The translations under genes were made by a program, and so were the position numbers. The notes under the pieces were generated by a model. The model worked only from the letters and a program-made list of their open reading frames with translations. It did no database searches and was not told the origin of the DNA. This document shows, piece after piece, positions 7,548-50,663 of a stretch of DNA of 64,000 nucleotides. The stretch's first letter is position 1. Each line of letters starts with the position of its first letter. Source of the stretch: Thermoplasmatota archaeon. GTDB lineage: Archaea; Thermoplasmatota; E2; UBA202; JdFR-43. The stretch covers positions 59,883 to 123,882 of the forward strand of contig JAPDJP010000012.1 of the NCBI GenBank assembly GCA_029259055.1, read 5' to 3'.

Positions 7548-8219
7548 TCTTACTGGTATTTCCTTTCCAAAATAAACATTTTTCCCATCAAATTTTATTC
7601 TGCATGCCATTATTTTAACTCCTCTTTCATGCGCCATCTTCAAAGTTTGTGAAAATTTTTCATCTATTTCCCAATTTGGGGAGAAATATCTTGCTTCCCT
7701 CATAACTAAAAATAGAATGGCTACCTTATAATTATTAATGGCATTTATTAATTCCACTACGTGCCTCCTCCCCCTCTCTGTTGGCGCATCTGGAAACATC
7801 GCTATACCATTCTTTTCATAAGTACACCCTTTAACCTCTAACAAACATTTTTTTGAATTTTTTAATAAAAAGTCTATTCTGCTTTTTCCATATTTATATT
7901 CCTTTTTCTCAATCTTATAATTAAAATTTTTTAATAAACCATTTTCTAAGATTTTCTCCGCAAATATTGAATGATAACCAGAATGTATAAAAACCCATTC
8001 CTTTAATTTTATAGCTATTACATCATATTTTGTTTTTCTTTTTCTTCCTTCCTTTTTACAAAGCAAAACTTTTCTTCCTCTCTTTAAGAGTTGATGCAAT
8101 CTTCCTGGGTCGTGCAGATGGCATTTTATTTTCCCTTTCAAATCTACTTCTACTAAAAATTTATTTAATCTTCTAATGAATGTAGCTTCTGTTAATTCAT
8201 CGAAACTATAGATAATCAA
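7542..8219 (-). CDS. sfsA: SfsA-family (sugar fermentation stimulation protein-like, PD-(D/E)XK nuclease fold) protein
   Basis: 225 aa. N-terminus ...ATFIRRLNKFLVEVDLKGKIKCHLHDPGRL resembles the SfsA N-terminal signature. Confidence 0.65.
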   Translation of the reverse strand: MIIYSFDELTEATFIRRLNKFLVEVDLKGKIKCHLHDPGRLHQLLKRGRKVLLCKKEGRKRKTKYDVIAIKLKEWVFIHSGYHSIFAEKILENGLLKNFNYKIEKKEYKYGKSRIDFLLKNSKKCLLEVKGCTYEKNGIAMFPDAPTERGRRHVVELINAINNYKVAILFLVMREARYFSPNWEIDEKFSQTLKMAHERGVKIMACRIKFDGKNVYFGKEIPVRL

Positions 8220-8220
8220 G

Positions 8221-8436
8221 CTAGCAAGAACTATGCTCTATGGCATTATTTGGACATGACTCAACGCAAGCACAACACTCTATGCAATCATCAACATTAT
8301 TAGCTACTGCCTTACCCTCTTTTAATTCATATATATCAACAGGACAAATTTCAACGCATTTGGCGGCGCCCTCGCATTTATCATAATCAATTTTTATCAC
8401 AATATCTCCTGAAGATGATTTAAATTCCATTATCAT
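8221..8436 (-). CDS. 2x[4Fe-4S] ferredoxin
   Basis: 71 aa with two cluster motifs, CEGAAKCVEICP and CIECCACVESCP. Confidence 0.8.
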   Translation of the reverse strand: MIMEFKSSSGDIVIKIDYDKCEGAAKCVEICPVDIYELKEGKAVANNVDDCIECCACVESCPNNAIEHSSC

Positions 8437-8478
8437 GATATGATAAGAAAATTTGCTTTATAAAATTAATGTTATTAT

Positions 8479-10128: not shown

Positions 10129-11399
10129 TTTCCTTCCAGATATTTTCTGACAATTTCTATTGCACACAACTCACCACACATTGAACATGTTGAGGATTGT
10201 GTCGGTCTTCTTTTTCTATATTCAATAGCTTTTTTGGCATCAATAGCAAGTTCAAACATTTTCTTCCAGTTAAGATTTGCTCTCGCTTCTGAAAATTCTT
10301 TGTCTAATTCCAAATCAATGCCTCTCGCAATGTTTGCAGCATGGGCAGCTATTTTTGTAACAATTACTCCTTCCCTTACATCTTCAACATTTGGTAATGC
10401 AAGATGTTCTGCAGGAGTTACATAGCAAAGAAAATCAGCTCCATAATAACCAGCTAAAGCCCCTCCAATCCCCCCAACAATATGATCATAACCAGGAGCT
10501 ATATCTGTCACAAGGGGACCTAATACAAAATAAGGAGCTTCTCTCGTAACTTTTTTCATTATTCGAATGTTAGCCTCTATATCATTTAATGGCATATGCC
10601 CCGGCCCCTCCACCATGGTTTGGACTCCTTTTTCTCTCGCTTTTTCAACCAACTCCCCAACAATCAATAATTCTTGGAATTTTGCTCGGTCATTTGAATC
10701 ATTTATCGCTCCGCTCCTCATACCATCTCCCAAACTTAAAGTTAAATCATATTCTTTTGCTATCTCCAATAAATAATCAAAGTCTTTGTATAAAGGATTT
10801 TCTTCCTCATGATAAAGAATCCAAGCAATATGGAAAGCCCCTCCTCTCGAAACCATTGGTATAAGCCTTTTTTGTTTTTTTAATCTTTCAACGCTTGTTT
10901 TTGTCACTCCAACGTGAGCAACGGCGAAATCGACACCTTGTTTAGCTTGCTTTTCAAAGGAATTAAACATATCATCGGCGGTCATTTCTACAATTGCGCC
11001 TTTTTTTCTCATTGCTTCTATACCAGCTTGATAAATTGGGACTGTTCCAAAAGGAACATTTACAACTTTTAACAATTCAAGTCTTATTTTATCTAAATCT
11101 CCCCCAGTTGATAAGTCCATAACCGCATCAGCCCCTGCTTCTATTGCTGCCTTTGCTTTTTCAACTTCCTCCTCAATATTGCAGTAATCCATAGAAGTGC
11201 CAATATTTGCATTTACTTTTACTCTTAATCCTTTTCCTATTCCTAAAGGAGAAGGAGAATGGATCGGATTATATGGTATAATTATTTTTCCTTCTGCAAC
11301 CCTTCTCCTAATAATTTCCGCATCAATTTTTTCAGCTTCTGCAACTTTTTTAATCTCTTCTGTTATTATTCCTCTTTTTGCCTCTTCCATTAAAGTCAT
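10125..11399 (-). CDS. thiC: Phosphomethylpyrimidine synthase ThiC
   Basis: 424 aa with strong ThiC family similarity across the protein. C-terminal CSMCGELCAIE Fe-S motif. Confidence 0.9.
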   Translation of the reverse strand: MTLMEEAKRGIITEEIKKVAEAEKIDAEIIRRRVAEGKIIIPYNPIHSPSPLGIGKGLRVKVNANIGTSMDYCNIEEEVEKAKAAIEAGADAVMDLSTGGDLDKIRLELLKVVNVPFGTVPIYQAGIEAMRKKGAIVEMTADDMFNSFEKQAKQGVDFAVAHVGVTKTSVERLKKQKRLIPMVSRGGAFHIAWILYHEEENPLYKDFDYLLEIAKEYDLTLSLGDGMRSGAINDSNDRAKFQELLIVGELVEKAREKGVQTMVEGPGHMPLNDIEANIRIMKKVTREAPYFVLGPLVTDIAPGYDHIVGGIGGALAGYYGADFLCYVTPAEHLALPNVEDVREGVIVTKIAAHAANIARGIDLELDKEFSEARANLNWKKMFELAIDAKKAIEYRKRRPTQSSTCSMCGELCAIEIVRKYLEGK

Positions 11400-11417
11400 T
11401 GTTCGTGATAAGGATAA

Positions 11418-12281
11418 TCACATATTAAATTTTCTAAGCCTATACGCCATTAATAAATAAACAACAATATCTCTCTTATACTTTCCAAATTTTTTAACAA
11501 ATTCTTTTATTACTGTTGGAGGTTGTAACTCATCAAAATAAAAATATGAAATAGCTTTTCTTACTCCTAAATCATCAGTAGGGATTATATTTAGGCCTAT
11601 TGAAGCAGCCATTACAAGCTCTGCAGTCCATTTTCCTATTCCTTTAAATGAGGTTAGTTCATTGAATATTTCTTCTGGTTTTTTATTCCTCAATTTTTCG
11701 GGATCGAAACCATTCAATACTTCTTGCGAAAAATTCTTTATATATTCTGCCTTTCTATAACTCAATCCGCACTTTCTTAATTCTTCTATTTTTGCGCTTG
11801 CAAGTTTATGTGGCAATGGAAAATCATAAACAAGTTCGTTCATATATTTTGTTTTCATTCCATACTTTTTTACAATATTGGATATGATATGGTTTGCAAT
11901 TTTAAGAGATATTTGTTGTTGTACTATAGCCTTTATTATTCCTTCATAAACACTAATAGACATTAAACCTGCTCTTCCAAATCCATGTAATTCTCTTTTT
12001 ATTTTTCTTAATATGCTATCTTTTTCCATAAAATCATATAAATTTTTGGGATTTTTTATTCCGTGATATTTAAAAACCAAATTTTCTATCTCTTTTGTTT
12101 TCTTAGGGGAATAAAAATATAGTAAATTATCTTTCCCCTCAACAATTACTGGGATTCCATTTAACATTCTCATCCATTTATTTCCTTTGATTATACATGG
12201 AGTTGGCTGATTAGGCAAAATAGAAAATTTTAGTTTAAGTTGCCATTTAAAAGGAAAATTCAATTTAATTTTCCATTTCAT
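11418..12281 (-). CDS. HhH-GPD DNA glycosylase (AlkA/Ogg-like: 3-methyladenine or 8-oxoG glycosylase)
   Basis: 287 aa. Helix-hairpin-helix GPD region ...FKGIGKWTAELVMAASIGLNIIPTDDLGVRKA. Confidence 0.65.
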   Translation of the reverse strand: MKWKIKLNFPFKWQLKLKFSILPNQPTPCIIKGNKWMRMLNGIPVIVEGKDNLLYFYSPKKTKEIENLVFKYHGIKNPKNLYDFMEKDSILRKIKRELHGFGRAGLMSISVYEGIIKAIVQQQISLKIANHIISNIVKKYGMKTKYMNELVYDFPLPHKLASAKIEELRKCGLSYRKAEYIKNFSQEVLNGFDPEKLRNKKPEEIFNELTSFKGIGKWTAELVMAASIGLNIIPTDDLGVRKAISYFYFDELQPPTVIKEFVKKFGKYKRDIVVYLLMAYRLRKFNM

Positions 12282-13158
12282 TTTTTCTTTTAGTAGCTAA
12301 AATATGCGCCTGTCTTATTGGTTCAGGAGTGCTATATTTCATAAAATTTTTTGTTATTTGATAAGCTGTTTCAATGCTAATTTTATTTCCAGGGGAAACA
12401 AAAATTTTTCCCAATTTCCTTCCTACTTTTCTTCCATTTATATAAACATATCCATCTCTTATTTTTCCATACAATAATTTTTTGGCTATCCCAATTGTTA
12501 CCATATCATTAATTACTCCAAAATGACAAGCGATTCCAAAAAAACGAGGATGTAACAATCCGTTTCCATCTATCATAACTATACTTGGATTTTCATTTCT
12601 TATAAGTTCATTCAAAATGGGCAACTCTCTATATGCTAAATAAGTTGGAATATATGGAAATTCAATTTTTTTCTCAATAATTTTTTGTTTAATTATATCT
12701 CCTTTTAAATTAAATTCAACATATGCACCATATGCTACATTTTTACCATAAGCAACATCCATACCAGCAATACTATTCAATTCAAAATCATCATTTAATG
12801 AGATTTTCTTTTTTAGATTTTCTTGCTCTTTTCTCAGTTTTTTTAAAGGATAATCCGTGATAAAATCATTAAATAAAAATTTTTTTAAATCAATTTTACC
12901 CTTTATTATTTCAACTCCGTCTCTTTTTAGTAATTCTATTTTCTTTTCTACACCATGAGCATATCCTCCTATACTGCCATCACTTTTCACAACCCTATAA
13001 CATGGAACATCCTTATATGGATTCTCATTTAGCATTTTTCCAACTGCTCTCGAAGCTATTATATCTCCCAAAGCCAATGCTATATGTCCATAAGTAGATA
13101 CTTTTCCTTTTGGAATTTGCTTCACCAACTCGTAGGTTTTTTTGTATAGGTTTATCAT
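12265..13158 (-). CDS. Fusion protein: N-terminal O6-alkylguanine-DNA alkyltransferase (MGMT/Ogt) domain plus C-terminal endonuclease V (Nfi) domain
   Basis: The track ORF begins at TTG (13185); the first ATG gives MINLYKK... at 13158. The N-terminal ~90 aa carry the PCYRVV motif (PCHRVV-type alkyl-acceptor Cys). The remainder (DVAYGK...YIPTYLAYRE...IVMIDGNGLLHPRFFGIACHFG...) matches EndoV. Confidence 0.75.
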   Translation of the reverse strand: MINLYKKTYELVKQIPKGKVSTYGHIALALGDIIASRAVGKMLNENPYKDVPCYRVVKSDGSIGGYAHGVEKKIELLKRDGVEIIKGKIDLKKFLFNDFITDYPLKKLRKEQENLKKKISLNDDFELNSIAGMDVAYGKNVAYGAYVEFNLKGDIIKQKIIEKKIEFPYIPTYLAYRELPILNELIRNENPSIVMIDGNGLLHPRFFGIACHFGVINDMVTIGIAKKLLYGKIRDGYVYINGRKVGRKLGKIFVSPGNKISIETAYQITKNFMKYSTPEPIRQAHILATKRKNEMEN

Positions 13159-13170
13159 GTTGCTCTTGTG

Positions 13171-13222
13171 CCTCCGCCTCGTCAAGGCGATTCATTATTC
13201 CTCGCCTCTCCGCAGGCGGAGG
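13171..13222. promoter_or_regulatory. GC-rich nested inverted repeat (9-bp perfect stem CCTCCGCCT / AGGCGGAGG, inner AGGCGA / TCGCCT) in a divergent promoter region
   Basis: Direct reading shows cctccgcct at 13171-13179 and aggcggagg at 13214-13222. It is an isolated GC island in AT-rich intergenic DNA between the ogt-nfi operon start and dnaG. Confidence 0.4.
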
Positions 13223-13331
13223 CTAATTTTTAAATACAAACTCAAATATAATTTTTCTTTTATGATGAATATAACCGTGATAATGATTACAAAAAGTTTT
13301 AATAATAGTTGGCATTAAAGCTTGTCAGGAG

Positions 13332-14483
<1,152 letters not shown>

Positions 14484-14484
14484 A

Positions 14485-15015
14485 ATGTATTCAAAAAAAG
14501 TTATGGAACATTTCTTAAACCCTCGCAATAAAGGTAAATTAGAAAATGCAGATGCTGTAGGCAGGGTGGGTAATCCAATTTGTGGAGATGTAATGTATAT
14601 TTATATTAAAGTTGAGGATAATAAAATAGTTGATATAGGTTGGGAAACAATGGGATGTGCAGCGGCGATAGCAACTTCTTCAATGGTGAGCGAGCTGGCG
14701 AAAGGGAAGAGTTTAGAAGATGCAATGAAAATAGAGAAAAAAGATATTGCCGATGCTTTAGAAGGATTGCCACCAATAAAAATGCACTGTAGTAATTTGG
14801 CATCGGAAGGATTGCATAAAGCTATTAAAAATTATTTAAATAGGGAAAAAATAATAGAAAAATTTAAGGAAGTTGTTGGGGAGGAAGATGCTAAAGCATT
14901 ATATATGCTTGGCATATCCGATTTAAAAGAGCTAAAAGATGTGACTCTTGAGGAAATTGCTAATATAATAAGCAAAGAAGGCTTGGAAAAATTGAGAAAA
15001 TATTTCAAAAAATGA
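14485..15015 (+). CDS. NifU/IscU-type Fe-S cluster scaffold protein
   Basis: 176 aa. GNPICGDVM, GCAAAIATSS and KMHCSNLASE are the three conserved IscU Cys sites. Confidence 0.8.
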   Translation: MYSKKVMEHFLNPRNKGKLENADAVGRVGNPICGDVMYIYIKVEDNKIVDIGWETMGCAAAIATSSMVSELAKGKSLEDAMKIEKKDIADALEGLPPIKMHCSNLASEGLHKAIKNYLNREKIIEKFKEVVGEEDAKALYMLGISDLKELKDVTLEEIANIISKEGLEKLRKYFKK

Positions 15016-15503
15016 TATTGGTTTTTACGGGAGATGGAAAAGGAAAAACAACATCCGCTTTTGGAATGGCTATAAGGGCAATAGGTCATCAAAAAAAAGT
15101 TATTATCATCCAGTTCTTAAAAAAGGGGAAATACGGAGAAACAAAACTTTTTGAAAAATTAGGAATAGAGATTTATCAATTTGGGAGGAAAGATTTTGTT
15201 CTTGAAGCAACAAAGGAAGACTATGAAATGGCTCAAAAAGCGTTAAAAAAAGCCTATGAAAAACTAAAAGAAAAGCCTTTCCTTCTAATTCTTGATGAAG
15301 TAAATGTCGCCATTGATATGGGATTAATTAAATTAAAGGATGTTATTGATTTACTGAAAAAGGCAGAAGAAACGCATATTATATTAACAGGGAGAAATGC
15401 ACCTCAAGAATTAATAAAATATGCTGATTTAGTTACAGAAATGAAAAAGATTAAGCATTACTATGATATGGGCATAAAAGCTATTGAGGGGCTGGAATAT
15501 TAA
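15012..15503 (+). CDS. ATP:cob(I)alamin adenosyltransferase (CobA/BtuR/CobO family, P-loop)
   Basis: 163 aa. N-terminus ILVFTGDGKGKTTSAFGMAIRA is the P-loop signature of CobA/BtuR. Confidence 0.7.
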   Translation: MILVFTGDGKGKTTSAFGMAIRAIGHQKKVIIIQFLKKGKYGETKLFEKLGIEIYQFGRKDFVLEATKEDYEMAQKALKKAYEKLKEKPFLLILDEVNVAIDMGLIKLKDVIDLLKKAEETHIILTGRNAPQELIKYADLVTEMKKIKHYYDMGIKAIEGLEY

Positions 15504-15508
15504 AATGA

Positions 15509-16366
15509 TTAGCATTTTTTCCTTAACTTACAAAACTTACATATTTTTCCATATGAAGCATAACCGCATTTAATGCATTTATTCAAATTCACTTCTTCTC
15601 TTATTTTTTCTTCGATTCTCCAAAAACTTCTCGCCATATTAAGTAGCATGCCCGGCATTTCCGTCTCCATCTCATGAAGCCATCTTTTTAGTCGCAACGT
15701 TGGAGCATTTTCTGCATGAGGACATTCTTCTTCTGCATACGGCAATTCATTTATCATTGCGTATAGCATGCATTCCTTATCCTTTAAATAATAAATTGGC
15801 TTAACTTTCGCCACCAGCTTATATTCCAAATTTTCTTCCAAAAATGGCTTATTTCCTCTGAAATTTAAAATGTTCCCAGTAATAACATTATTCATTGCAA
15901 AAGTAACTACATCGCTTAAATTATGACCGGTAGCAACATATTTACAATTATTTTCATATGCAAATTTGTTCATTAAGTATCTTTTTGCTGTTCCACAAAT
16001 ACTGCAAGGCTTTTCATATTTTTCTAAATCTATTCCATACTCCTCAAGATAAATAACTTCTAAATCATATCCCAATAAATTGCAAAGTTTCTCAGCCTCT
16101 ACTTGACATTTATTTGAATAATATTTTATTCCCAAATTTATATGAAATGGGAGTAAATCAAATTTAAATTTATTTAATGCGTGAAAGCAAGCGGAAGAAT
16201 CTTTTCCTCCAGATAATGCAACTGCAATTTTTCCTCTTATATTAAACTTATCTATTACACTTCTCACCTTTCCTAAAAAATATTTAATGAAATGTTCTTC
16301 ACAATATGCTTTTCCATATGCTTCTTCTATAGCTTCTTTATTGCAATAGTAGCACTTCATTTCCAA
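15509..16366 (-). CDS. PP-loop tRNA thiolation enzyme (TtuA/Ncs6/TtcA family) with N- and C-terminal zinc fingers
   Basis: 285 aa. SGGKDS PP-loop motif. CxxC...C at the N-terminus and CIKCGY...CKFCK at the C-terminus. Confidence 0.75.
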
Positions 16367-16407
16367 AGATTTATCTATTAGTTATACATTTCTTTTTTGG
16401 TGCTAAA

Positions 16408-16791
16408 ATGAAGGAGATGGCGGAGGTTAGAGAGCTAAAAGCGAATCGATATATAATTATTGATGATGAACCATGTAAAATATTGAGCATAACTACTTCA
16501 AAGCCAGGTAAACATGGAGAAGCGAAAGCAAGGATAGAGGCAATAGGTGTTTTTGATAATCAAAAAAGAAGCGTCATATATCCAGTACGTCATAAAGTAG
16601 CTGTCCCAATCATTGATAAAAGAACTGCTCAAGTAATATCAGTTATGGGAGACAAAGCTCAATTGATGGATTTAGAAACCTATGATACATTTGAAATAGA
16701 AATACCAGAGGAGTTAAAGGATAAAATAGCAGAAGGGAAAGAAGTTGAATATATACAGGCATTGGGCAAAAGAAAAATAACAAGAGCATGA
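16408..16791 (+). CDS. Translation initiation factor 5A (aIF-5A, hypusine-containing)
   Basis: 127 aa. [12 protein letters not shown] hypusination loop. Confidence 0.9.
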
Positions 16792-17585
16792 AATTTGCAG
16801 ATGCCGAGCAGGGTTACGAGGAATCCCATTTTATTATTTTTGGCATACCATATGAAGATGAAGAAATGTCATTTCGTAATGGCACAAAAGAGGCACCAGA
16901 TTTTATAAGATATGTAAGCTGGGACTATGAAAGCTACAATATAACAAACGGCATCGATTTACAAGAAATACCAATACATGATGCAGGAAATCTTGGTATA
17001 GAAGAAGCTACACGATTCATAAGAAGGGTAATAAAGGATGGAAAAATACCAATTGCTATAGGAGGAGCGCATTCCATCACTCCTTTTCTAATTTCTTCTT
17101 TAAAAAATACAATAGATTTTGGCGTCGTCATTTTAGATGCCCATTTAGATTTTAGGGATGAGTATATGGGTGATAAAAAAAGCCATGCTTGCACAGCAAG
17201 AAGAATTTATGAGTTGGTTGGAAAAGAAAAAATTATTTCTTTAGGAGTAAGGTCCGCCTCTAAAGAGGAAATAGAGGATGCAAAAAAGCTTGGATTTATT
17301 TATTATTCCTCATTGAACAGCGATATAAATTTTGATAAAATTTATTTAAGTATCGATATAGATGTATTCGACCCATGTTATGCGCCAGGCGTAAGCAATC
17401 CGGAGCCTATGGGCTTAGGATATGAAGTATTGGATTTTATTAAAAATTTAGCTGGGAAAGTAATTGCATTGGATGTGGTAGAGGTTTGTCCTCCATATGA
17501 TGATGAAAGAGCTTCTTTATTGGCGGCAAAGCTTATAAGAGATTTTATAACATGGAAAGTTAGTTATAAGAAATTTGGAAAGTAA
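16788..17585 (+). CDS. speB: Agmatinase (arginase/ureohydrolase family)
   Basis: 265 aa with arginase-fold Mn-binding segments GGAHSIT, DAHLDF and SIDIDVFDP. Conserved archaeal neighbour of aIF5A. Confidence 0.85.
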
Positions 17586-17946
17586 TGGTTTTTATTGTTT
17601 CGTTATTTCCAGCATTATCTATACTGTAATATTGAAGTATATGCGAACCTTCTTCTGAAATAACTAATTGATTTGTATATTCATTCCAACCCTCATTATC
17701 TAAGTTATATAGAGTTACATTTACACCCGAGTGTTCATCATAAGATTCCAGCGAAATGTAAACGGTTTTTCTATATATCCCTCCTATACCAATCCCACTT
17801 ATTATAACGTTTGTTTGCGGAGACAAGGTATCAACTTTTATTTGGATGGATTTAGTTATTTCTTTATTTCCTGCCCAGTCAATGCTATAAAAATAAATTT
17901 CGTGTATCTCATCTTCTGATAAATAGAAAGGTCCATTATATGTCAT
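17560..17946 (-). pseudogene. Apparently frameshifted 3' portion of the upstream gene, carrying Ig-like YSxDxAGNxE repeat domains. Together with 17993..20410 it would form a single ~930-aa gene.
   Basis: Its reading frame stays open upstream of its ATG to 18015 (..FHFTATDDLTTPTTYYKIDNGQWMTYNGPFY..), overlapping the end of the 805-aa frame. Two copies of the YxSIDxAGNxE motif. The T4 and A4 homopolymer runs lie in the 20-nt overlap. Confidence 0.5.
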
Positions 17947-17992
17947 CCACTGGCCATTATCTATTTTATAGTAGGTGGTAGGAGTTGTTAAA

Positions 17993-20410
17993 TCATCGGT
18001 TGCAGTAAAATGAAATTAAAACATCACTTATATACCATCCGTTATTTCCCATAATACCACCTATATTACATAATGTAGTAGGTGGTGTTGTATCTTCAAC
18101 GAGTGGTAAATAATCTCCTCCATTCATATTTCCATTACAATTGTAAGGAATAAGGGTGTCCCCTATTCCGTCATTATTTGTATCTATACCCATATAATCT
18201 GACCAATAGTTTCCACCTAAATATGGTCCCCCCACTATATTCTTACCGGCTATTTTAGCAATATTCCATATATTTGTTCCACTGGTGCATTCGCAAGCAT
18301 TTATTGTGTTATTGAAATAATTGTTGTATATTAGATTATCTATAGAGGAGGGTAAGCTTATTCCTACATTGTTCTCAAATATGTAATTGCTAATTATTTT
18401 ATTCATACAGCACTGCATTAATAAAATACCCTGGCCATTACAATATATTCTGTTACCAATTATTCTAATATTTGTACAATCTTCTACTAAAATACCAACA
18501 CTATTGTTATATATGGAATTATTTTTGATTAGTGGGAATAAAATACTATTACTCATCCAGCAACTATCCTTTATGTATATACCTTTGTCGTTATTATAGA
18601 TGTTACAATTCTTAACAATTAATCTATGATGTCCTCTTATAAAAATGCCATATAATCCATTTTTAATTGTTAAATTCTTTATTATTGCATCTGCCGAAAT
18701 ATTAAATACTGGTTTTGTGGTGTTTCCGATAATGATGGCATTTTTACTATTCCCGATAATATTTATCTCCTTATTTATTTTGATACTTTCGTTATAGATA
18801 CCACTAAATACGTAAACTGTTCCACCTTCTGCAACTGCATCTATTGCATCCTGTATTTTATCAAAATGATTATATTGCCATCCAGGAGTATAGTAATTGA
18901 AATCATCATCTACGTATACGGTTGTTGGAGGAGAAAAATGCTTTGTTTCAAGACTTAAGGAAGGATCTCCATAGAGAATATAATCGTATAAATTTCTAAG
19001 GCGTTTTATCATTGTTTTATTACTTTCTTGGCTAAAATTATTTTGGGAACAATATCTCAAAGTATAATTATACTTTGCATCATATAATGCCTCTCCCACA
19101 CTTTTACCATCAATTAGTTCTTCGAAGAAATAACATACTAAATCTTGCAAACCGTCTCCTTTCTTTTCCCACCATGGTGTGAAATGGCTGGGACGTGTGG
19201 CTCCAATATATGCAACAGCTCCATTACGGAGAAGACGGACACCTAATGAGCTTATATTTGGAGTTGCGGTCCAGCAAGCAAAAGCAAAAACAATGCTATC
19301 ATTATTTAACATAGAAGTTGAGGCAGTATCAATGAATGGTATATCTTCTAATTCGAAAGATTGTGGTACATGATCTCCACAATAAATAATGGAATATGGG
19401 GGTATTATTTGAGCATGGGGAGTATCATATTTCCAGATATGACGGTATGCTGCCCGCTTGCCGCCATGCGATTGCCAAAAGACAATTCCATAGCCTTTAT
19501 TCCACTCATTAATTACATTTGTATAGTTTAAAGAATAATCGCCTATATAAGTAGAAGGATCTACGCCTTCGGTTTCATACATTGTTGTGACGCTATAATT
19601 TTGTAGGATATTATCTTTCAGATATTCACATAAAGTAGCGCCATCGGTTTTGCAATTAAATATTTTTCCACCTCTATTTTCATTTTTATAAACTAGAATA
19701 GCTCCAAGTAGCAACGCTTTTTTCTTCCATTCTCCGTCATCTTGTTCAAACTTTATGGTTCTATTCAGTATAGATCGTAAGATATCTAACGGATTATTAT
19801 TGGTATTGTTATTGATATTATTGATATTATTATTTATATTACCTATGTTATTAATATTTATCTCAACATTATTTGAATTAATGTGAATGGGTATCCTACC
19901 TACATAAACATCCGGCTTAGGCTCAAAACCAAAATTAACAAAATTTTCGTATGCACCTGGTGGATCTCCCCAATCTATTGTTAAATTTACATAATAATAG
20001 TCAGTTGGTATGTCCCGATAATTTTTTTGGGTTTCATTTGGGTCTACACGGAAAGTTTTCATTGGAATGGTATCGTTATCACCGATTATCAAAACATATT
20101 TTATGCCCCATGGTTGGGAATAATTTTTTAGGAAATTCCTTATCTTCTCCTGCAGATTATCACCAGTAAAGGCATTGTCAATCCAAGAAATATTCACTAT
20201 TTTAACTGAGTGACCAGTTCCCCATTTCCAGACAGAGAAATTTATTATTGCTGGAACGAGTTTATCCACAGTTATTATAACATAATCATATTTTGGAAAA
20301 TTTATGCATGTGCTTATATGTATGGATGGGCTCGTAAAACCTTTGCTAATTGGAGGGATACCTATTAATAGCATACAACAGACTACCACCATCCATTTCT
20401 GCCCTTTCAT
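17993..20410 (-). CDS. Large secreted protein: signal peptide, peptidase C25 (gingipain)-like domain, Asn-rich low-complexity linker, parallel beta-helix repeats. The C-terminal part continues in ORF 17560..17946 after an apparent frameshift.
   Basis: 805 aa. Signal peptide MKGQKWMVVVCCMLLIGIPP. C25-like motifs KYVLIIGDNDTIP, WQSHGG and FAFACWT. Repeated beta-helix-like segments (NCNIYNNDKGIYI..., NNSIYNNSVGILV..., GNRIYCNGQGILL...). Confidence 0.55.
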   Translation of the reverse strand: MKGQKWMVVVCCMLLIGIPPISKGFTSPSIHISTCINFPKYDYVIITVDKLVPAIINFSVWKWGTGHSVKIVNISWIDNAFTGDNLQEKIRNFLKNYSQPWGIKYVLIIGDNDTIPMKTFRVDPNETQKNYRDIPTDYYYVNLTIDWGDPPGAYENFVNFGFEPKPDVYVGRIPIHINSNNVEININNIGNINNNINNINNNTNNNPLDILRSILNRTIKFEQDDGEWKKKALLLGAILVYKNENRGGKIFNCKTDGATLCEYLKDNILQNYSVTTMYETEGVDPSTYIGDYSLNYTNVINEWNKGYGIVFWQSHGGKRAAYRHIWKYDTPHAQIIPPYSIIYCGDHVPQSFELEDIPFIDTASTSMLNNDSIVFAFACWTATPNISSLGVRLLRNGAVAYIGATRPSHFTPWWEKKGDGLQDLVCYFFEELIDGKSVGEALYDAKYNYTLRYCSQNNFSQESNKTMIKRLRNLYDYILYGDPSLSLETKHFSPPTTVYVDDDFNYYTPGWQYNHFDKIQDAIDAVAEGGTVYVFSGIYNESIKINKEINIIGNSKNAIIIGNTTKPVFNISADAIIKNLTIKNGLYGIFIRGHHRLIVKNCNIYNNDKGIYIKDSCWMSNSILFPLIKNNSIYNNSVGILVEDCTNIRIIGNRIYCNGQGILLMQCCMNKIISNYIFENNVGISLPSSIDNLIYNNYFNNTINACECTSGTNIWNIAKIAGKNIVGGPYLGGNYWSDYMGIDTNNDGIGDTLIPYNCNGNMNGGDYLPLVEDTTPPTTLCNIGGIMGNNGWYISDVLISFYCNR

Positions 20411-20628
20411 AAACGGAATTTTTTAAAAAATTTAAAAATTTATTGCATCAATACATCCTATAAAAAATGGCATAAAAAAGTATAGTTAGGAATATAAACA
20501 AAATTATTGAATATTCTATGGCAAATTTTATATTGTAAATAATAAAGGTTGTACATATCGCAAGAGATGTTAAAAATGATAGGAAAAGAGGCATCACTAT
20601 CCTAAATTTTTTTATTAGCATTTTTATA

Positions 20629-21801
20629 TTACATTAGATATTTCTTCGCTAAAACTAATAGAGAAGGTTTCTTTATCAATTTTTTTATGAAAAAGTTAAG
20701 TTTTGCCTGTGTCAAGGCATATATATCTTCTCCCTGTAAAATCTCCGCCAATAATTCAAAATCTTTATCTTCCAACTTTTCCAAAAAAGCTCTAAGTTTC
20801 ATTAACTTCTTCGTTTTTTCTCCGTATTCTTCCTCCCATTTCTTTTCGTATTCCTTTAATCTTTCTTTTGATAAGTCATTTTCTTTTAAAGCTTTATTCG
20901 CGACCTCAGCAGCCATTAATGAGGAATGAATAGCTCTGTAAATACCCCCACCATGGATTGGATTCACAAGTTGAGCAGCGTCCCCAACAAGCATTACACC
21001 ATCTGTAACCATTTCCGTAAAATGGGCAACTGGTACTCCACCCGCATTTATTTCAATTGGCTGTGCATTTCTAAAGATTTCTTCGTGCTCTTCTATAAAT
21101 TTTTTAAGATAGTCATATGCCCTCATTTTTGCTTGTTTTACCAATATTCCAAGGCCAACATTAAAAGAAAAAGCTTTTGGAAAAATCCATGCATAGCCCA
21201 GAGGAGCAACTTCTCTTCCAAAAAATATGTGAATATATTTATTTTCTATGTTCAAACCAGCCATTTCAAATTGTATGCCCGAATGATAATCTGTAATTTT
21301 ATTTGTAGTATTCAAACCAGCCCATCTTCCGACCTTGCTTTCTACCCCATCTGCTCCAACAACAAGTTTTGCTTCAATTTCTTTTATACCTTCTATTGTT
21401 TTAACTTTTAATAGCCAGTTACCATTTTTTCTTTCCATATCTATTGCTTGAGCTTTAACCATATATCTTGCTCCTTCTTTTATTGCCTCTGCTGCCAACC
21501 ATTTTTCAAATATTTTTCTTTCCAATACATATCCTTCCATTTCCTCTCCTTCCATGAGCACTTTTTTGCCAGATGGAGAATAAAGTATTGCTCCCTTTAT
21601 TCTACCAAAAATACATAAAGGATGAATCTTCATTTCTAGCTTATCTAAGCCATGCTTTGTAACTCCTTCAGCACATCTTTTTGGGCAACCAATCTCCTGT
21701 TTTTTCTCAACCACCAAGACATCATAACCATAAGAAGCCATTTCTTTAGCCATTACACTCCCAGCTGGACCAGCTCCAACTATTAAACAATCTACCTTCA
21801 T
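20629..21801 (-). CDS. Geranylgeranyl reductase (digeranylgeranylglycerophospholipid reductase, FAD-dependent)
   Basis: 390 aa. N-terminal dinucleotide-binding motif DCLIVGAGPAGS and the conserved CPKRCAEG-type Cys motif. Length and architecture are typical of archaeal GGR. Confidence 0.85.
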   Translation of the reverse strand: MKVDCLIVGAGPAGSVMAKEMASYGYDVLVVEKKQEIGCPKRCAEGVTKHGLDKLEMKIHPLCIFGRIKGAILYSPSGKKVLMEGEEMEGYVLERKIFEKWLAAEAIKEGARYMVKAQAIDMERKNGNWLLKVKTIEGIKEIEAKLVVGADGVESKVGRWAGLNTTNKITDYHSGIQFEMAGLNIENKYIHIFFGREVAPLGYAWIFPKAFSFNVGLGILVKQAKMRAYDYLKKFIEEHEEIFRNAQPIEINAGGVPVAHFTEMVTDGVMLVGDAAQLVNPIHGGGIYRAIHSSLMAAEVANKALKENDLSKERLKEYEKKWEEEYGEKTKKLMKLRAFLEKLEDKDFELLAEILQGEDIYALTQAKLNFFIKKLIKKPSLLVLAKKYLM

Positions 21802-22824: not shown

Positions 22825-24936
22825 TCATAGATTTATAATGAATACTTCCCTCTCATCCCACTCACTTTTTCCATTTGTTGCATATGCAACAACCTTTATT
22901 TTATATTCTCCTCTTGCTTTTTCATCCCATTTCCACTCAAAAGGCTCGTTCGAAACAGTTACCTTTAGCTCATCATTTATATAGAAATTAACTTTTTCTA
23001 ATTTTCCTGGTGGATCTGTTTCAACATTTACTTTAATTGTTATGCCACCAAGTATTATTGTCTTATTGATAAAACTGAAAAATGGGCCCCTATCTATTAC
23101 ATACAAACCATTTAATGGTTTAGTGATTTCTAAGCTTATGTTTATTTTTTCTTCAGGTTCTTTTATAGCTACTTGAGGGTCTCCAAATAAGTTTGTTTGA
23201 TAATACGTCCATCTCATTCCATTTTCATTTATTCTCCACACGTTATCTTCCTTAGAAAAATGATTTGCCCTTCCTACTTCTTTTATATCCTCTTCAAATA
23301 ATCCTTTGAAGAAGGATAAATCATATCTCTGGCCAGGAGAATCCGTACTATTTTCTCTTCCTAATCCATAACGAGAATTCATAATACAAGCAAAAGCTCC
23401 GTATTCATCACATGTTAAATGCTCTGCAAAACAGTCATCTTCATAATATCTATCTTCAGGATACCAGTTATCGAAAGAGCCAGCTAAGCAGGTTTGCGAA
23501 TATAAAAAGAAATATTTAGTGTTATGTAAAAGCTTCAAATCACTATTATGAAGTTTCAATGCATAAGTGGTCCATCCGTGCCCATCATGATTTATGATGT
23601 GTACTCCATTATTTATAACATCTGCCAAATTATATTTATCCCAATACATGAGTTTATCATACATTCTAGTTATATTGTATACGGGAGGAATCAATTTCAT
23701 AACTTCATCTTTATGATTTCCTCCCCATTCCGCCTCCCCGCCAAATCCTAAATATTCTCCAAGTAAAAGAACCTGTATTATGTAATTATCAGTAGTTTCT
23801 TCATACGAAATTGTTTTTTGAATAAAATTATTTACCTCCTTTATGTTATCAACGCAAGCTCTCCCGACCCATACTTCTGCGAATAAATCCGCTTCATCGC
23901 CATTTCCTTTGCTATTTTCAGTTGCATTTTCTCCCCATCTTGTATCATGGTCATTATTAAAGCTTCCATCTAAACAGGCATAGTATACATCAGATGGAAT
24001 ATACGCTTCTAAAACATCTTGATTATCTAAAGGCAAACCAACGGATGTTGCATATAAATAGCGGGGTGGTATTATATTACTGCTCTCATTTTTAATATCT
24101 CCATCCCCTCCTAACAAAACATAATCTATTCCCCAATTTAGATAGGCATATCTGATGAAATTTCTTATTTTTGCCTGAGTATCATTAAACATTCTCGTCT
24201 TATTCCAAAAATCTTTATTGTTAACGATTTCTTCAACACTTACAATTTTTGTTTTTATCCCTTTACTTTCTTTATACTCTGCAAGTTGCTGAAAAGCTTC
24301 TTTAAAATCATTAGCTGTTATTATCAAATATTCGTATTCTTCTAAAGCATCTTTAGTTGGGTATGTATCAATTATCCATGGATTATAAACAAATTTTCTA
24401 ATCCATTCTTTATCTTTCTTTAATCCCCTATACAATGGATTTACTTTTCCCTCCTTAAGCTCTATCTCCACTTTTATTTTATCTCTATAAAAAATTTTTC
24501 CATTATCATATGAAATTGGAAATATATTCATAACCAGTATATTATAACCTCTCAGCCCATATATGCCCACTTTTTCGTATAATTTTTCTATTTTGTTTCC
24601 ATGCTTTATTTCTATTTTTCTTCCTTTTATTATGATGGGTTTTTCCTTCTCTAAATTATAATTTCCTATAAATTTCTCTTCACCTTTTACAACTATCTTT
24701 TTTACATCTTTTTTAAAAGGTAATAAAATATAAACCGGCTTAACTGGTATCAACAAACCTTTATAATTATATGGATAACAACCTTCCAATTCTATTCTAT
24801 ATTCATTTCCTATCCGTTTTATTGTTGGTTTATCAAATTTAAATTCTAAAAGTATTTTTTCTTCCTTGGCAAAAGATGGAATAATTGTTGCTAAAAGCAT
24901 TATCATAACCATAAAACAAATTAACTTTTTTGTCAT
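22825..24936 (-). CDS. Secreted peptidase C25 (gingipain)-like protein with C-terminal Ig-like/beta-sandwich domain
   Basis: 703 aa. Signal peptide MTKKLICFMVMIMLLATIIPSFA. C25-like motifs DYVLLGGDGD...IPP, HIINHDGHGW (His) and SQTCLAGSFDNW (Cys). Confidence 0.55.
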   Translation of the reverse strand: MTKKLICFMVMIMLLATIIPSFAKEEKILLEFKFDKPTIKRIGNEYRIELEGCYPYNYKGLLIPVKPVYILLPFKKDVKKIVVKGEEKFIGNYNLEKEKPIIIKGRKIEIKHGNKIEKLYEKVGIYGLRGYNILVMNIFPISYDNGKIFYRDKIKVEIELKEGKVNPLYRGLKKDKEWIRKFVYNPWIIDTYPTKDALEEYEYLIITANDFKEAFQQLAEYKESKGIKTKIVSVEEIVNNKDFWNKTRMFNDTQAKIRNFIRYAYLNWGIDYVLLGGDGDIKNESSNIIPPRYLYATSVGLPLDNQDVLEAYIPSDVYYACLDGSFNNDHDTRWGENATENSKGNGDEADLFAEVWVGRACVDNIKEVNNFIQKTISYEETTDNYIIQVLLLGEYLGFGGEAEWGGNHKDEVMKLIPPVYNITRMYDKLMYWDKYNLADVINNGVHIINHDGHGWTTYALKLHNSDLKLLHNTKYFFLYSQTCLAGSFDNWYPEDRYYEDDCFAEHLTCDEYGAFACIMNSRYGLGRENSTDSPGQRYDLSFFKGLFEEDIKEVGRANHFSKEDNVWRINENGMRWTYYQTNLFGDPQVAIKEPEEKINISLEITKPLNGLYVIDRGPFFSFINKTIILGGITIKVNVETDPPGKLEKVNFYINDELKVTVSNEPFEWKWDEKARGEYKIKVVAYATNGKSEWDEREVFIINL

Positions 24937-25028: not shown

Positions 25029-26324
25029 ATGATAATTGACCCATGGGGAAGCCAGAAATATGAATACGAGAAATTATTCGAAAATTTTGGAATAGAAAGA
25101 TTTGAAGAAAGATTATGGAAAGACCTGCCAAATCCTCCTTTTTTCTTTAGGAGGAAAATAGTTTTTGGGCATAGAGGATTTGATATTATAAAAAATGCCA
25201 TTAAAAAGAGGCTACCCTGGACTATTTTAACTGGATTAATGCCATCTGGAAAAATGCATTTTGGACATAAGATAGTAATTGACCAGGTCATTTATTATCA
25301 AAGTATTGGAGCAGATATACATATTGCTGTAGCGGATATAGAAGCCTTTGCAACAAGAGGATATTCATTAAAAGATGCAAAAAAAATTGCAATTGATGAA
25401 TATATTTTGAATTATATTGCATTAGGTTTAAAGCCATGCAGGATATATTTTCAATCTAAAAATGAAGATGTGAAAGATTTGGCATATATAATGGCAAAAA
25501 AATCTAACTTATCTCAAGTATTTGCAATTTATGGATTTAAAGGCTCAACAAATATGGCTCATGTTTTCGCTCCATTTATTCAAGCTGGAGACATCTTGCA
25601 CGTACAAATGGATAAATATGGGGGCCTCCGCCCTACGCTTGTGCCAGTTGGCGTCGACCAAGACCCACATATAAGATTTTGTAGGGACTTGGCAGATGCC
25701 CATCGCCTTTATAGTATTGTTCCACAAAATGAGCGTATTGGTATTTTTGTTAAAGGAGATGAAAATGTTAAGGAATTGCTGGATAATGCGGAAGAAATCG
25801 TTAATAAATATGGAGAGTTAATAGAAAGAAAAGATGATTACAAAGCAATATATGCAAAAATTAACAATTTATTTATTATAGATTATGAACTAGCAAAAAT
25901 TGAAAGAAAATTTGATGGTTTTGGCTTTCTTCTACCATCTTCAACCTATCATCGCTTCATTTCTGGATTGGACGGAAACAAAATGTCTAGTAGTAGACCA
26001 CAGTATGCTATATTTTTAACTGATGAAAATGAGGAAATAAAAAGGAAAATATGGGCGGCAAAAACAGGAGGAGCAGTATCTGCTGAGGAACAAAGGAAAT
26101 ATGGGGGGAAACCTGAAGATTGTATCATATATGAAATTTTTACGTATGGCATAATAGAAGATGACAAAGAGCTTAGCGAGATATATAATGATTGTAAAAG
26201 CGGGAAATTATTGTGCGGGCAATGTAAAAAGCTTGCTTATGAGCTTATTTCCAATTTTGTGCAGGAATTGAAAGAAGGGAGAGAGGAAGCTAAAGAAAAA
26301 ATTAAGGAATATGTAGAATACTAA
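25029..26324 (+). CDS. trpS: Tryptophan--tRNA ligase (archaeal/eukaryotic type)
   Basis: 431 aa. N-terminus DPWG...YEKLFENFGIE...FFFRRKIVFGHRGFD; class I HIGH-like GKMHFGH; KMSSS motif; GGKPEDCIIYEI. This matches euk/archaeal TrpRS patterns. Confidence 0.8.
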   Translation: MIIDPWGSQKYEYEKLFENFGIERFEERLWKDLPNPPFFFRRKIVFGHRGFDIIKNAIKKRLPWTILTGLMPSGKMHFGHKIVIDQVIYYQSIGADIHIAVADIEAFATRGYSLKDAKKIAIDEYILNYIALGLKPCRIYFQSKNEDVKDLAYIMAKKSNLSQVFAIYGFKGSTNMAHVFAPFIQAGDILHVQMDKYGGLRPTLVPVGVDQDPHIRFCRDLADAHRLYSIVPQNERIGIFVKGDENVKELLDNAEEIVNKYGELIERKDDYKAIYAKINNLFIIDYELAKIERKFDGFGFLLPSSTYHRFISGLDGNKMSSSRPQYAIFLTDENEEIKRKIWAAKTGGAVSAEEQRKYGGKPEDCIIYEIFTYGIIEDDKELSEIYNDCKSGKLLCGQCKKLAYELISNFVQELKEGREEAKEKIKEYVEY

Positions 26325-26704
26325 TATTTTTCTGCCTCAATATCCAATATACCATTTCTAAATGTTTTCTTTATTTTTTTCTTAATTTTGTATGGTAATT
26401 CTATTTCTTTTGTTCCCTCAGGAGTTTTTATTTCTATAACATTTTCTTTAACCTTTATCTTAAGGTCTTTTTCGTTTTTAATTTGTGGGAGTTCAACTGT
26501 AACATATAATTTATTTCCATCTACAATTATATCTTCCTCATCAAAATTTTCTACACTTAAGGAAAAACCTTTGACAAATGGTTGCATATTAAAAGCACTT
26601 CTAAATGCTTCTTCTATTATTTTTTCCATTTCCCTAACTATTTTTTCAAATTCTTCCATTTCTTTTTTTCTTCTTTTCTTATCCTTATCATCGTCAAATA
26701 TCAT
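26321..26704 (-). CDS. Small heat-shock protein (Hsp20/alpha-crystallin family), Lys-rich N-terminus
   Basis: 127 aa. C-terminus ...KKTFRNGILDIEAEKY resembles the Hsp20 C-terminal strand. Confidence 0.5.
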   Translation of the reverse strand: MIFDDDKDKKRRKKEMEEFEKIVREMEKIIEEAFRSAFNMQPFVKGFSLSVENFDEEDIIVDGNKLYVTVELPQIKNEKDLKIKVKENVIEIKTPEGTKEIELPYKIKKKIKKTFRNGILDIEAEKY

Positions 26705-26786
26705 TTTAAAAATAAAAGAGAGGCATTATTAAAATATTTTGTTAAATTCGGAAGTAAAATTTACAATGACAGCTTCATAAAAGGAA

Positions 26787-26815
26787 AAAAACAAAAAAAC
26801 AAAAAAAACAGGAAA
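26787..26815 (-). terminator. Oligo-T run (minus strand) immediately 3' of the 1222-aa surface-protein gene; archaeal-type terminator
   Basis: The plus strand reads aaaaaaacaaaaaaacaaaaaaaaca, giving T7-8 runs on the coding (minus) strand directly after the stop. Confidence 0.45.
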
Positions 26816-26828
26816 AGGGAGGATGGGA

Positions 26829-50567: not shown

Positions 50568-50663
50568 TGGCTATCTATTTCTTTTTTATATATTAAATTT
50601 TCTTTTAGTTTCTTTAAATTTTAAATAAAAATTAAAAAAAATTAAAAAATTAAAATTAATAAA

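What the first reader, a model, noticed from the sequence alone, without database searches (positions are those of the whole stretch)
17560..20410. Giant secreted peptidase-C25-like / beta-helix protein split by a frameshift in a homopolymer-rich 20-nt window
The 805-aa ORF (signal peptide, gingipain-like domain, Asn-rich linker, parallel beta-helix) ends at a TGA at 17993-17995. The downstream 128-aa ORF has a frame that stays open upstream of its ATG to 18015 and encodes domain-like sequence there (..TATDDLTTPTTYYKIDNGQW-MTYNGPFY..) of the same Y-x-S-I-D-x-AGN-x-E Ig-like repeat type. The two frames overlap only in 17996-18015 (minus strand ...tttcattttactgcaaccga...), which contains T4 and A4 runs. 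The possibilities are a genuine inactivating frameshift (pseudogene), a homopolymer sequencing error, or slippage-based phase variation of a surface protein. Restoring the frame gives a ~930-aa protein.
Basis: seen in the sequence. Interest (0 to 1): 0.5.

Follow-up and report, generated by a model that had tools for sequence, protein, structure and literature searches.

The report
Frameshift-split archaeal C25 peptidase gene
The two adjacent reading frames are one gene for a 949-residue secreted gingipain-like protease, broken here by a single extra T; near-identical strains carry the gene intact or lack it entirely, so this is an ordinary recent gene-disrupting variant (or, less likely, a one-base assembly error).

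Summary
On the minus strand, the 805-aa ORF (17993..20410) and the frame carrying the 128-aa ORF (17560..18015) are one gene. Deleting one T from the TTTT run at 18007-18010 gives a 949-aa protein: signal peptide, C25 peptidase, NosD-like beta-helix and two OmpL47-type barrel domains.

Two independent assemblies of about 99.6-99.7% identical strains encode that 949-aa protein with TTT at the site. The break lies inside the first barrel domain, so the 128-aa ORF is not a separate gene.

Across about 56 kb compared with sister strains, this is the only indel in coding sequence. It is also the only indel in the window that no other assembly shares, so the source assembly is not error-prone.

New here: five other assemblies lack the whole gene (17610-20451 replaced by 18 nt), so it is a dispensable, strain-variable gene. 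The gene-carrying haplotype is also unusually uniform.

My estimates: a genuine, very recent truncating mutation about 0.6; an isolated assembly or consensus error about 0.33; phase variation or programmed frameshifting together under 0.05. Only reads can decide between the first two. The finding is ordinary and of low interest.

The parts
17993..20410 (-). Upstream ORF, 805 aa. Residues 1-801 of the true protein plus four out-of-frame residues (YCNR) and a premature TGA.
   Evidence: It is identical to P0124, which a public NCBI record calls as a separate protein.
18007..18010 (-). The lesion: TTTT on the coding strand, where intact alleles have TTT. This is a one-base insertion after codon 801 (Phe, TTT).
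   Evidence: It is the only indel against L001 in 12.9 kb, and it is also absent from L002/L017/L018.
17560..18006 (-). The +1 frame continuation, encoding residues 802-949 of the intact protein plus the stop codon.
   Evidence: It matches P0001/P0122 residues 802-949 apart from G849R.
17560..17946 (-). The called 128-aa ORF. It begins at Met822 of the intact protein, in the middle of a barrel domain, so it is a by-product of ORF calling rather than a gene.
   Evidence: (P0121).
20336..20410 (-). N-terminal hydrophobic signal or anchor segment (MKGQKWMVVVCCMLLIGIPPISKGF).
   Evidence: Read directly from the sequence and modelled as a helix at residues 2-17. No signal-peptide predictor was run.
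18950..20284 (-). Peptidase C25 (gingipain-like, clan CD) catalytic domain, residues 43-487. It contains an Asn-rich insert at about residues 177-207. Catalytic His315 lies at 19466-19468 and Cys379 at 19274-19276.
   Evidence: Pfam PF01364, 141 bits. H315 and C379 are invariant in 27 homologues. Foldseek top hit RgpB 1cvr, E 1e-13, TM-score 0.62 normalised to the target. Codons checked.
18188..18835 (-). NosD-like right-handed parallel beta-helix, residues 526-741, followed by the GNYWSDY...DGIGD cap motif.
   Evidence: PF05048, 122 bits, and PF13229. PDB 7o0y NosD and 2kzw. pLDDT 80-95.
17824..18055 (-). First OmpL47-type barrel/Ig-like domain, about residues 786-862. The frameshift cuts it after roughly its first 16 residues.
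   Evidence: NF047446, two stretches. Internal repeat alignment with domain 2: 36% identity, E 5e-12, spanning the junction.
17572..17763 (-). Second OmpL47-type barrel domain, residues 883-946.
   Evidence: NF047446 best stretch 883-946.
17610..20451 (.). The segment missing from the gene-absent allele of other strains, replaced there by the 18-nt filler TGTACGACAACTGG[C/T]TAG. The last 50 nt of the gene (17560-17609) remain as a relic.
   Evidence: L019, L021, L022, L023 and L026 join 17609 to 20452.
17339..21015 (.). A low-diversity tract shared by the gene-carrying strains. Against L002 it holds 2 SNPs plus the indel in 3.7 kb, while the flanks differ at 0.35-0.5%.
   Evidence: Poisson P = 5e-5 to 2e-3 for the gene region.

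Best explanation
What it is. The span 17560-20410 (minus strand) is a single gene of an AT-rich archaeon; its closest named homologues are from Thermoplasmata-type MAGs. The gene encodes a 949-aa exported multidomain cysteine peptidase:
- an N-terminal signal or anchor segment;
- a C25 gingipain-like catalytic domain with a His315/Cys379 dyad;
- a NosD-like parallel beta-helix;
- two C-terminal OmpL47-type beta-barrel (Ig-like) domains.

What happened here. One extra T (TTT to TTTT, 18007-18010) shifts the frame after Phe801. Translation ends four codons later, giving an 805-aa product that keeps the protease and the beta-helix but loses both C-terminal barrel domains. The 128-aa ORF is only the leftover frame, read from an internal Met.

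Most likely cause. I infer that this is a genuine and very recent mutation in a gene the population can do without. Other strains of the same species carry the gene intact, or have deleted it while keeping a second, distant C25 paralogue 2.4 kb away. The effect is truncation or loss of function, which is one step of ordinary gene decay or strain-level variation in surface proteins. It is not a regulatory device.

Shown versus inferred.
- Shown: gene unity, the exact lesion, the intact and deleted alleles, and the domain content.
- Inferred: that the extra T is in the DNA of the organism rather than introduced during assembly, that the protein is extracellular, and that it is proteolytically active.
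For: Intact alleles.
- P0122 (949 aa; NCBI/ENA ERZ25515408 NODE_12, 206 kb contig; coverage 67 taken from that contig's name; Logan SRR24791474) is a second intact allele.
- In the DNA alignment of L001 with the window (12,947 columns, 99.63% identity), the only indel is the extra T. L002 shows the same.

The break is inside a domain.
- NF047446 scores 120-127 bits on the repaired C-terminus.
- Repeat 1 aligns with repeat 2 across the junction, E 5e-12.
- A distant relative (Thermoplasmatales archaeon HyVt-387, L004) has beta-helix, then DTVPPETTL, then Ig-like domains, all in one frame.

Assembly quality.
- Over window 7560-64000, compared with 13 samples, every other indel is intergenic (26799-26808, 50627-50634, 53429).
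- Each of those other indels is shared with at least one other assembly.
- The 20.3 kb comparison with L005 has no indels at all.

Dispensability.
- L019, L021, L022, L023 and L026 (five samples) lack 17610-20451.
- The window's flank haplotype is closest to two gene-absent strains, at 3 and 6 differences in 4 kb. The gene-present strains differ from it by 14-21.
- The paralogous C25 gene (22825..24936) is kept in a gene-absent strain.

Recency. Apart from the extra T, no difference in the gene is clearly unique to the window. At 17871 it keeps the consensus AGN motif, where both intact alleles have ARN.

Protein identity.
- Pfam C25 at 141 bits.
- H315 and C379 invariant in 27 homologues.
- Foldseek hit to RgpB, E 1e-13.

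Literature. C25 peptidases are reported as expressed extracellular peptidases of related sediment archaea (PMC6461988).
Against: - No reads were available, so a one-base consensus or assembly error cannot be excluded.
- The T4 allele appears in only one assembly, and its proteins could not be found in any independently assembled contig.
- Where gene-present and gene-absent strains coexist in a sample, the region may have lower coverage and a branched assembly graph, which raises the local error risk.
- The lack of any further decay in the gene fits an artefact just as well as a very young mutation.
- The truncated 805-aa protein keeps both the catalytic and beta-helix domains, so 'inactivating' is not established.
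Confidence: 0.6

Rival explanations
1. Sequencing, assembly or polishing error. The organism's DNA has TTT and an intact 949-aa gene, and the extra T was introduced when the contig consensus was built.
For: The T4 allele is unique to this record. Two other assemblies have TTT. Apart from the indel, the gene differs from the intact alleles by only 1-2 SNPs, with no secondary decay. The locus is a branch point of assembly graphs: contigs end at 17609 and 20506. Local coverage in a mixed-strain sample could therefore be low.
Against: Across 56 kb there is no other indel unique to the window. Every other indel is intergenic and shared with another assembly, and one 20-kb comparison has none. That argues against an indel-prone technology. 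From general knowledge, a 3-4 nt homopolymer is not a typical short-read error site. The gene is demonstrably dispensable, which makes a real knock-out unsurprising.
Confidence: 0.33
2. Slipped-strand phase variation. The T run switches between T3 (ON, full length) and T4 (OFF or truncated), reversibly changing a surface protein.
For: Both T3 and T4 exist among strains. The product is an exported surface-type protein. The locus is otherwise hypervariable, with presence/absence alleles.
Against: From general knowledge, contingency loci use long tracts, with homopolymers typically of 7 or more bases. A T3/T4 run has no elevated slippage rate. Length variation among these strains is seen at real long T tracts (T8 at about 26.8 kb and about 50.6 kb) but not otherwise at short runs. 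Only one of three gene-carrying assemblies has T4.
Confidence: 0.03
3. Programmed +1 ribosomal frameshifting at UUU_U: tRNA-Phe re-pairs one base downstream, so the full-length protein is made from the T4 allele.
For: The sequence UCA UUU UAC permits perfect re-pairing of a UUU-reading tRNA in the +1 frame, and the required shift is +1 (read directly from the sequence).
Against: The frameshift is not conserved. Strains about 99.6-99.7% identical encode the protein in a single frame, as does a distant relative. The 0-frame A-site codon is an ordinary Tyr codon, not a stop or an evident hungry codon. No stimulatory element was looked for or is required by the data.
Confidence: 0.01
4. Two genuine separate genes: an 805-aa protease and a 128-aa Ig-domain protein.
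For: A public annotation lists both as proteins (P0124 and P0121).
Against: The 128-aa ORF starts mid-domain at Met822 and has no signal peptide. The frame upstream of its ATG encodes the missing N-terminal strands of the same domain. Relatives have one ORF.
Confidence: 0.01

Closest known systems
Gingipains RgpB/Kgp of Porphyromonas gingivalis (MEROPS family C25, clan CD)
   Same: Pfam PF01364 covers the full model length. The His/Cys dyad is conserved, with H315 in an SHG motif and C379 in an AC motif. The predicted fold matches RgpB 1cvr and Kgp 4rbm. Both are exported and carry Ig-like accessory domains.
   Different: Sequence identity to the solved structures is only about 15%, and a sequence-only PDB search does not find them. 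The host is archaeal. No T9SS C-terminal sorting domain and no haemagglutinin/adhesin domains were detected. Instead there is a NosD-like beta-helix plus two OmpL47-type barrels, and an Asn-rich insert in the catalytic domain.
Extracellular C25 peptidases of sediment Thermoplasmata-related archaea (for example Thermoprofundales/MBG-D; PMC6461988)
   Same: Best database hits are C25 proteins from Thermoplasmata/Thermoplasmatales MAGs at 32-41% identity over the catalytic half. These are variable multidomain exported proteins. The family is reported as expressed and predicted to be extracellular.
   Different: No protein outside this species' own 90% cluster covers the whole length; the best are P0020 and P0047, at about 78% coverage and 32% identity. 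The C-terminal pair of OmpL47-type domains was not seen among the Pfam labels of those hits.
OmpL47-type beta-barrel domain (NCBIfam NF047446; Leptospira surface protein OmpL47)
   Same: Two copies score 120-127 bits against a cut-off of 40. They show the characteristic Y-x-S-I-D-x-A-G-N-x-E motif.
   Different: This is not an OmpL47 orthologue: the equivalog model NF047441 scores 70-78 bits against a cut-off of 250. Here the domains are C-terminal appendages of a protease.
Ordinary frameshift pseudogenes and strain-specific gene loss in prokaryotic populations
   Same: A single-base indel lies in coding sequence, an intact allele exists in conspecific strains, and the same gene is wholly deleted in others.
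   Different: Nothing essential differs. The only extras are the unusually low diversity of the gene-carrying haplotype and the spread of the deletion allele over several flank backgrounds.

Membership tests
Peptidase family C25 (clan CD) | Match to the family profile above the curated threshold | tested here: met
   PF01364, 141.2 bits against a cut-off of 23, model positions 1-374 of 374.
Peptidase family C25 (clan CD) | Catalytic His and Cys conserved | tested here: met
   H315 and C379 are invariant columns in a 27-sequence alignment. The codons are CAT at 19466-19468 and TGC at 19274-19276.
Peptidase family C25 (clan CD) | Gingipain-like (caspase-like) fold | tested here: met
   AF2 model with pLDDT of about 90 or more over most of the domain. 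Foldseek hits to RgpB 1cvr (E 9.8e-14, TM-score 0.62 normalised to the target) and Kgp 4rbm/6i9a.
Peptidase family C25 (clan CD) | Proteolytic activity | not testable with these tools
   Needs an enzyme assay.
Bacteroidota gingipains proper (T9SS cargo) | C-terminal T9SS sorting domain (Por_Secre_tail) | tested here: not met
   No PF18962 or similar hit in Pfam or NCBIfam scans of the full or C-terminal sequence. The host is archaeal.
NosD (nitrous-oxide reductase maturation protein) | Score at or above the NCBIfam subfamily cut-off | tested here: not met
   TIGR04247 scores 86 bits against a cut-off of 300. Only the generic beta-helix domain is shared (PF05048, 122 bits).
OmpL47-type beta-barrel domain (NF047446) | Domain profile above the cut-off | tested here: met
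   120-127 bits against a cut-off of 40, in two stretches. The first domain is recovered only after repairing the frame.
Frameshift-disrupted gene (pseudogene or truncation allele) | Intact single-frame version in close relatives, differing by an indel | tested here: met
   L001/L018 and L002/L017 are 99.6% identical, and TTT versus TTTT is the only coding indel.
Frameshift-disrupted gene (pseudogene or truncation allele) | The indel is present in the organism's DNA (read support) | not testable with these tools
   No reads are available. Exact look-ups of the split products in independent assemblies found nothing.
Phase-variable contingency locus | Hypermutable simple-sequence tract (a long homopolymer or repeat) at the switch site | tested here: not met
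   The tract is T3/T4.
Phase-variable contingency locus | Tract-length heterogeneity within or among closely related strains | tested here: inconclusive
   T3 in two assemblies and T4 in one. No within-sample data.
Programmed ribosomal frameshift | The frameshift is conserved in homologues | tested here: not met
   Conspecific alleles and the distant relative L004 are in a single frame.

The most novel reading that the evidence does not exclude
The locus is a maintained presence/absence/knock-out polymorphism of a surface protease in an uncultured archaeal population. The deletion allele sits on several flank backgrounds and has its own SNP. The gene-carrying haplotype (17339-21015) is almost invariant, as if it had spread recently by homologous recombination. 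The frameshift would then be an independent, second route to losing the C-terminal surface domains. This pattern is expected under frequency-dependent selection, for example by viruses or predators that recognise the exposed protein.
Probability: 0.2. Interest if true: 0.4.

Novelty: new member of a known kind. Interest (0 to 1): 0.15.

Why it matters
The main value is for annotation. The 805-aa and 128-aa entries in the public record should be merged and flagged as one frameshifted gene, and the intact 949-aa sequence (P0001 or P0122) is the form to use for family and structure work.

Biologically, it adds one example of strain-level turnover of an exported C25 peptidase in a protein-degrading, Thermoplasmata-like archaeon. 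Intact, truncated and deleted alleles coexist across samples. That is a modest data point for studies of accessory surface proteins and gene-specific sweeps in uncultured archaea. It opens no new mechanism.

Tried and rejected
- **Exact look-ups of the split products.** The 805-aa and 128-aa products are not in the positional index. I therefore could not test whether an independent assembly of the source sample reproduces T4.
- **JGI metagenome scan.** A pattern accepting either T3 or T4 gave 0 hits.
- **GTDB genome scan with the protein.** It returned only a distant relative, HyVt-387, at 40% identity over the best segment.
- **Cluster look-ups of conserved neighbours.** These carried no names.
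- **Paper search by run and assembly accession.** 0 hits.
- **Sequence-only PDB search.** It missed the gingipains and found only NosD and 2kzw for the beta-helix cap. The fold search was needed.
- **AF2 model of the C-terminus.** Residues 773-949 have pLDDT below 50, because the alignment has no homologues there. The model gives no reliable structural support for the junction lying in a beta-strand. The domain argument rests on the HMM and the internal-repeat alignment instead.
- **Mobile-element origin of the 2.84-kb segment.** I saw no flanking direct repeats on reading the junctions, the 18-nt filler matches nothing else in the window, and there is no GC anomaly. Rejected for lack of evidence.
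- **L003 as a second independent disruption.** The gene is fused to RAMP genes at 19394. I did not accept this, because the contig has 2.4x coverage and the joined DNA is 37.8% GC against 32%, so it may be a chimera.
- **Rfam and tRNA scans of the window.** Nothing found.
Full report
**1. Observation**

On the minus strand, an 805-aa ORF runs from 20410 to a TGA at 17993-17995 and ends ...GWYISDVLISFYCNR*. The +1 frame is open from 18015 (FHFTATDDLTTPTTYYKIDNGQWMTYNGPFY...) to a TAA at 17560-17562. The 128-aa ORF that ORF-finders report starts at an internal ATG at 17946.

The two frames can be joined only between 17996 and 18015. Removing one T from the TTTT run at 18007-18010 yields one 949-aa ORF reading ...VLISF-TATDDL.... 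The restored length is 949 aa rather than about 930, and the overlap contains T3 and T4 runs on the coding strand.

**2. One gene, shown by intact alleles**

A search with the repaired protein returned P0001: 949 aa, 100% coverage, a single G-to-R difference. It is encoded on ENA ERZ26872903 NODE_17, a 69.7-kb contig at coverage 20.7.

The 90% cluster holds five members:
- the window's own split pair, P0124 (805 aa) and P0121 (128 aa), both from an NCBI contig of 134,816 bp;
- P0001;
- a second intact 949-aa allele, P0122 (NCBI/ENA ERZ25515408 NODE_12, 206 kb; coverage 67 taken from that contig's name; also Logan SRR24791474);
- a 353-aa fragment, P0123.

L001 aligns with window 7560-20506 over 12,947 columns at 99.63% identity, with 47 mismatches and exactly one gap: the extra T. 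L002 aligns over 22.85 kb and shows the same gap, plus a 2-nt difference in an intergenic poly-T tract.

**3. The break lies inside a domain**

Only after repair does the C-terminus give two clean OmpL47-type barrel domains (NF047446, 120-127 bits against a cut-off of 40). The repaired first repeat aligns with the second across the junction: 36% identity, E 5e-12, GWYISDVLISFTATDD against GIYRKTVYISLESYDE.

The 128-aa ORF therefore starts at Met822, in the middle of a domain, and has no export signal. A distant relative (Thermoplasmatales archaeon HyVt-387, L004) also has beta-helix, then 'DTVPPETTL', then Ig-like domains in a single frame.

**4. What the protein is**

- **Catalytic domain.** Pfam finds Peptidase_C25 at residues 43-487, 141 bits. 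In a 27-sequence alignment, His315 and Cys379 are invariant.
- **Beta-helix.** NosD/Beta_helix covers residues 526-741, 122 bits. It scores far below the NosD subfamily cut-off (86 against 300 bits), so it is a generic passenger-type beta-helix and not a NosD orthologue.
- **Structure.** An AF2 model is confident over most of the protease and beta-helix (pLDDT largely 80-98) but not over residues 773-949 (pLDDT below 50). Foldseek places the catalytic part with gingipain R and K (1cvr E 1e-13, TM-score 0.62 normalised to the target).
- **Relatives.** The closest database relatives are C25 proteins of Thermoplasmata/Thermoplasmatales MAGs, 32-41% identical over the catalytic half. Such peptidases are reported as expressed, predicted-extracellular enzymes of related sediment archaea (PMC6461988).

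I infer an exported protein-degrading enzyme whose C-terminal barrels act as binding or spacer modules.

**5. Real mutation or error?**

I compared window 7560-64000 with contigs of the same species from 13 samples, at 99.36-99.87% identity.
- Apart from the T at 18007-18010, all indels are intergenic: 26799-26808 (poly-T), 50627-50634 and 53429.
- Each of those indels is shared with at least one other assembly.
- The 20.3-kb comparison with L005 has none.

The source assembly is therefore not indel-prone, and the frameshift is its only unshared indel in coding sequence. On the other hand, no reads were available. The split products could not be located in an independently assembled contig. 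Beyond the indel, the gene carries no further difference that is clearly unique to the window; at 17871 it keeps the consensus AGN motif where the intact alleles have ARN. That fits either a very young mutation or an artefact.

**6. New context: the gene is dispensable and strain-variable**

Five assemblies join window 17609 directly to 20452 through an 18-nt filler, TGTACGACAACTGG[C/T]TAG:
- L019 (ERZ25515786)
- L021 (SRR22064146)
- L022 (SRR22214790)
- L023 (SRR22214801)
- L026 (ERZ25515360)

The whole gene is gone except its last 50 nt. Of those 50 nt, 26 overlap the convergent agmatinase gene and the other 24 are a relic of the coding sequence. This points to deletion rather than to a never-occupied site.

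Several contigs end exactly at 17609 or at 20506. That is what an assembly-graph branch at this polymorphism would produce, so both alleles probably coexist in some samples.

In the 4-kb left flank, the window's haplotype is closest to two gene-absent strains (3 and 6 differences). It lies 14-21 differences from the two gene-present strains. The deletion allele occurs on widely different flanks.

Conversely, the gene-carrying tract 17339-21015 is nearly invariant among the three carriers: 1-2 SNPs where 8.5-15 are expected from flank divergence (Poisson P = 5e-5 to 2e-3). This suggests the alleles move between backgrounds by recombination and that the gene-carrying haplotype spread recently.

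A second, distant C25 paralogue (22825..24936, 26% identity) is kept in a gene-absent strain.

**7. Verdict on mechanism**

A gene that the population tolerates losing makes a true truncating mutation the most economical reading. My estimates are:
- genuine recent mutation, about 0.6;
- isolated consensus error, about 0.33;
- phase variation, about 0.03, because T3/T4 is far shorter than known slippage tracts, and length variation among these strains is seen only at T8-type runs;
- programmed +1 frameshifting at UUU_U, about 0.01. It is stereochemically possible, but it is contradicted by in-frame alleles in near-identical strains, and there is no stall codon;
- two genuine genes, about 0.01, excluded by sections 2 and 3.

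The truncated 805-aa product retains the catalytic and beta-helix domains, so the variant may be a truncation rather than a null.

**8. Novelty**

This is an ordinary frameshift in a new member of a known peptidase family. The only mildly interesting aspect is the population pattern of intact, truncated and deleted alleles with a low-diversity gene haplotype. Interest is low.

Noticed in passing
window 17610-20451; L019, L021, L022, L023, L026: There is a whole-gene presence/absence polymorphism. Five assemblies replace this 2.84-kb segment with an 18-nt filler, TGTACGACAACTGG[C/T]TAG, which itself carries a C/T SNP. The deletion allele sits on several different flank haplotypes.
   Followed up: yes
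window 17339-21015: The gene-carrying haplotype is almost invariant among three strains whose flanks differ by 0.3-0.5% (Poisson P = 5e-5 to 2e-3). This suggests recent spread by recombination.
   Followed up: partly
L003:1-6953 (ENA ERZ25515360 NODE_274, coverage 2.4): The first 1,113 nt match window 20506-19394. The contig then switches to 37.8%-GC DNA carrying two RAMP (type III CRISPR-Cas-like) genes, truncating the peptidase at about residue 339. This is either a real rearrangement or island, or a low-coverage chimera.
   Followed up: partly
window 22825-24936 (-): A second C25 peptidase paralogue lies here: 703 aa, C25 plus Big_7, only 26% identical to the split gene. It is retained in a strain that lacks the split gene.
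   Followed up: partly
window 26829-30497 (-): A 1,222-aa protein with an N-terminal lamin-tail domain (LTD) and weak C-terminal CarboxypepD_reg/Fn3_arc-like hits that fall below the curated cut-offs. With the two C25 genes, it makes this stretch a cluster of large exported or surface-type proteins.
   Followed up: no
window 26000-27000, especially 26799-26808: This is a local SNP hot spot, with 14 differences per kb against L002. A T8-G-T7-G-T7 tract between the LTD gene's stop and the hsp20-like gene's start also varies in length and sequence.
   Followed up: no
window 50627-50634 and 53429: Intergenic indels (1 nt or 10 nt in an A/T-rich tract, and a 10-nt indel) are polymorphic among strains. 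The window's versions are shared with other assemblies.
   Followed up: partly
window 17560-17585: The 3' ends of the convergent peptidase and agmatinase (16788..17585) genes overlap by 26 nt. This probably explains why the deletion allele keeps the gene's last 50 nt.
   Followed up: partly
window 19790-19882 (protein residues about 177-207): An Asn-rich low-complexity insert (NSNNVEININNIGNINNNINNINNNTNNN) lies inside the C25 catalytic domain. It is partly modelled at low confidence and has no counterpart in the paralogue alignment.
   Followed up: no
window 1-64000: No tRNA genes and no Rfam family reached threshold anywhere in the 64 kb.
   Followed up: yes
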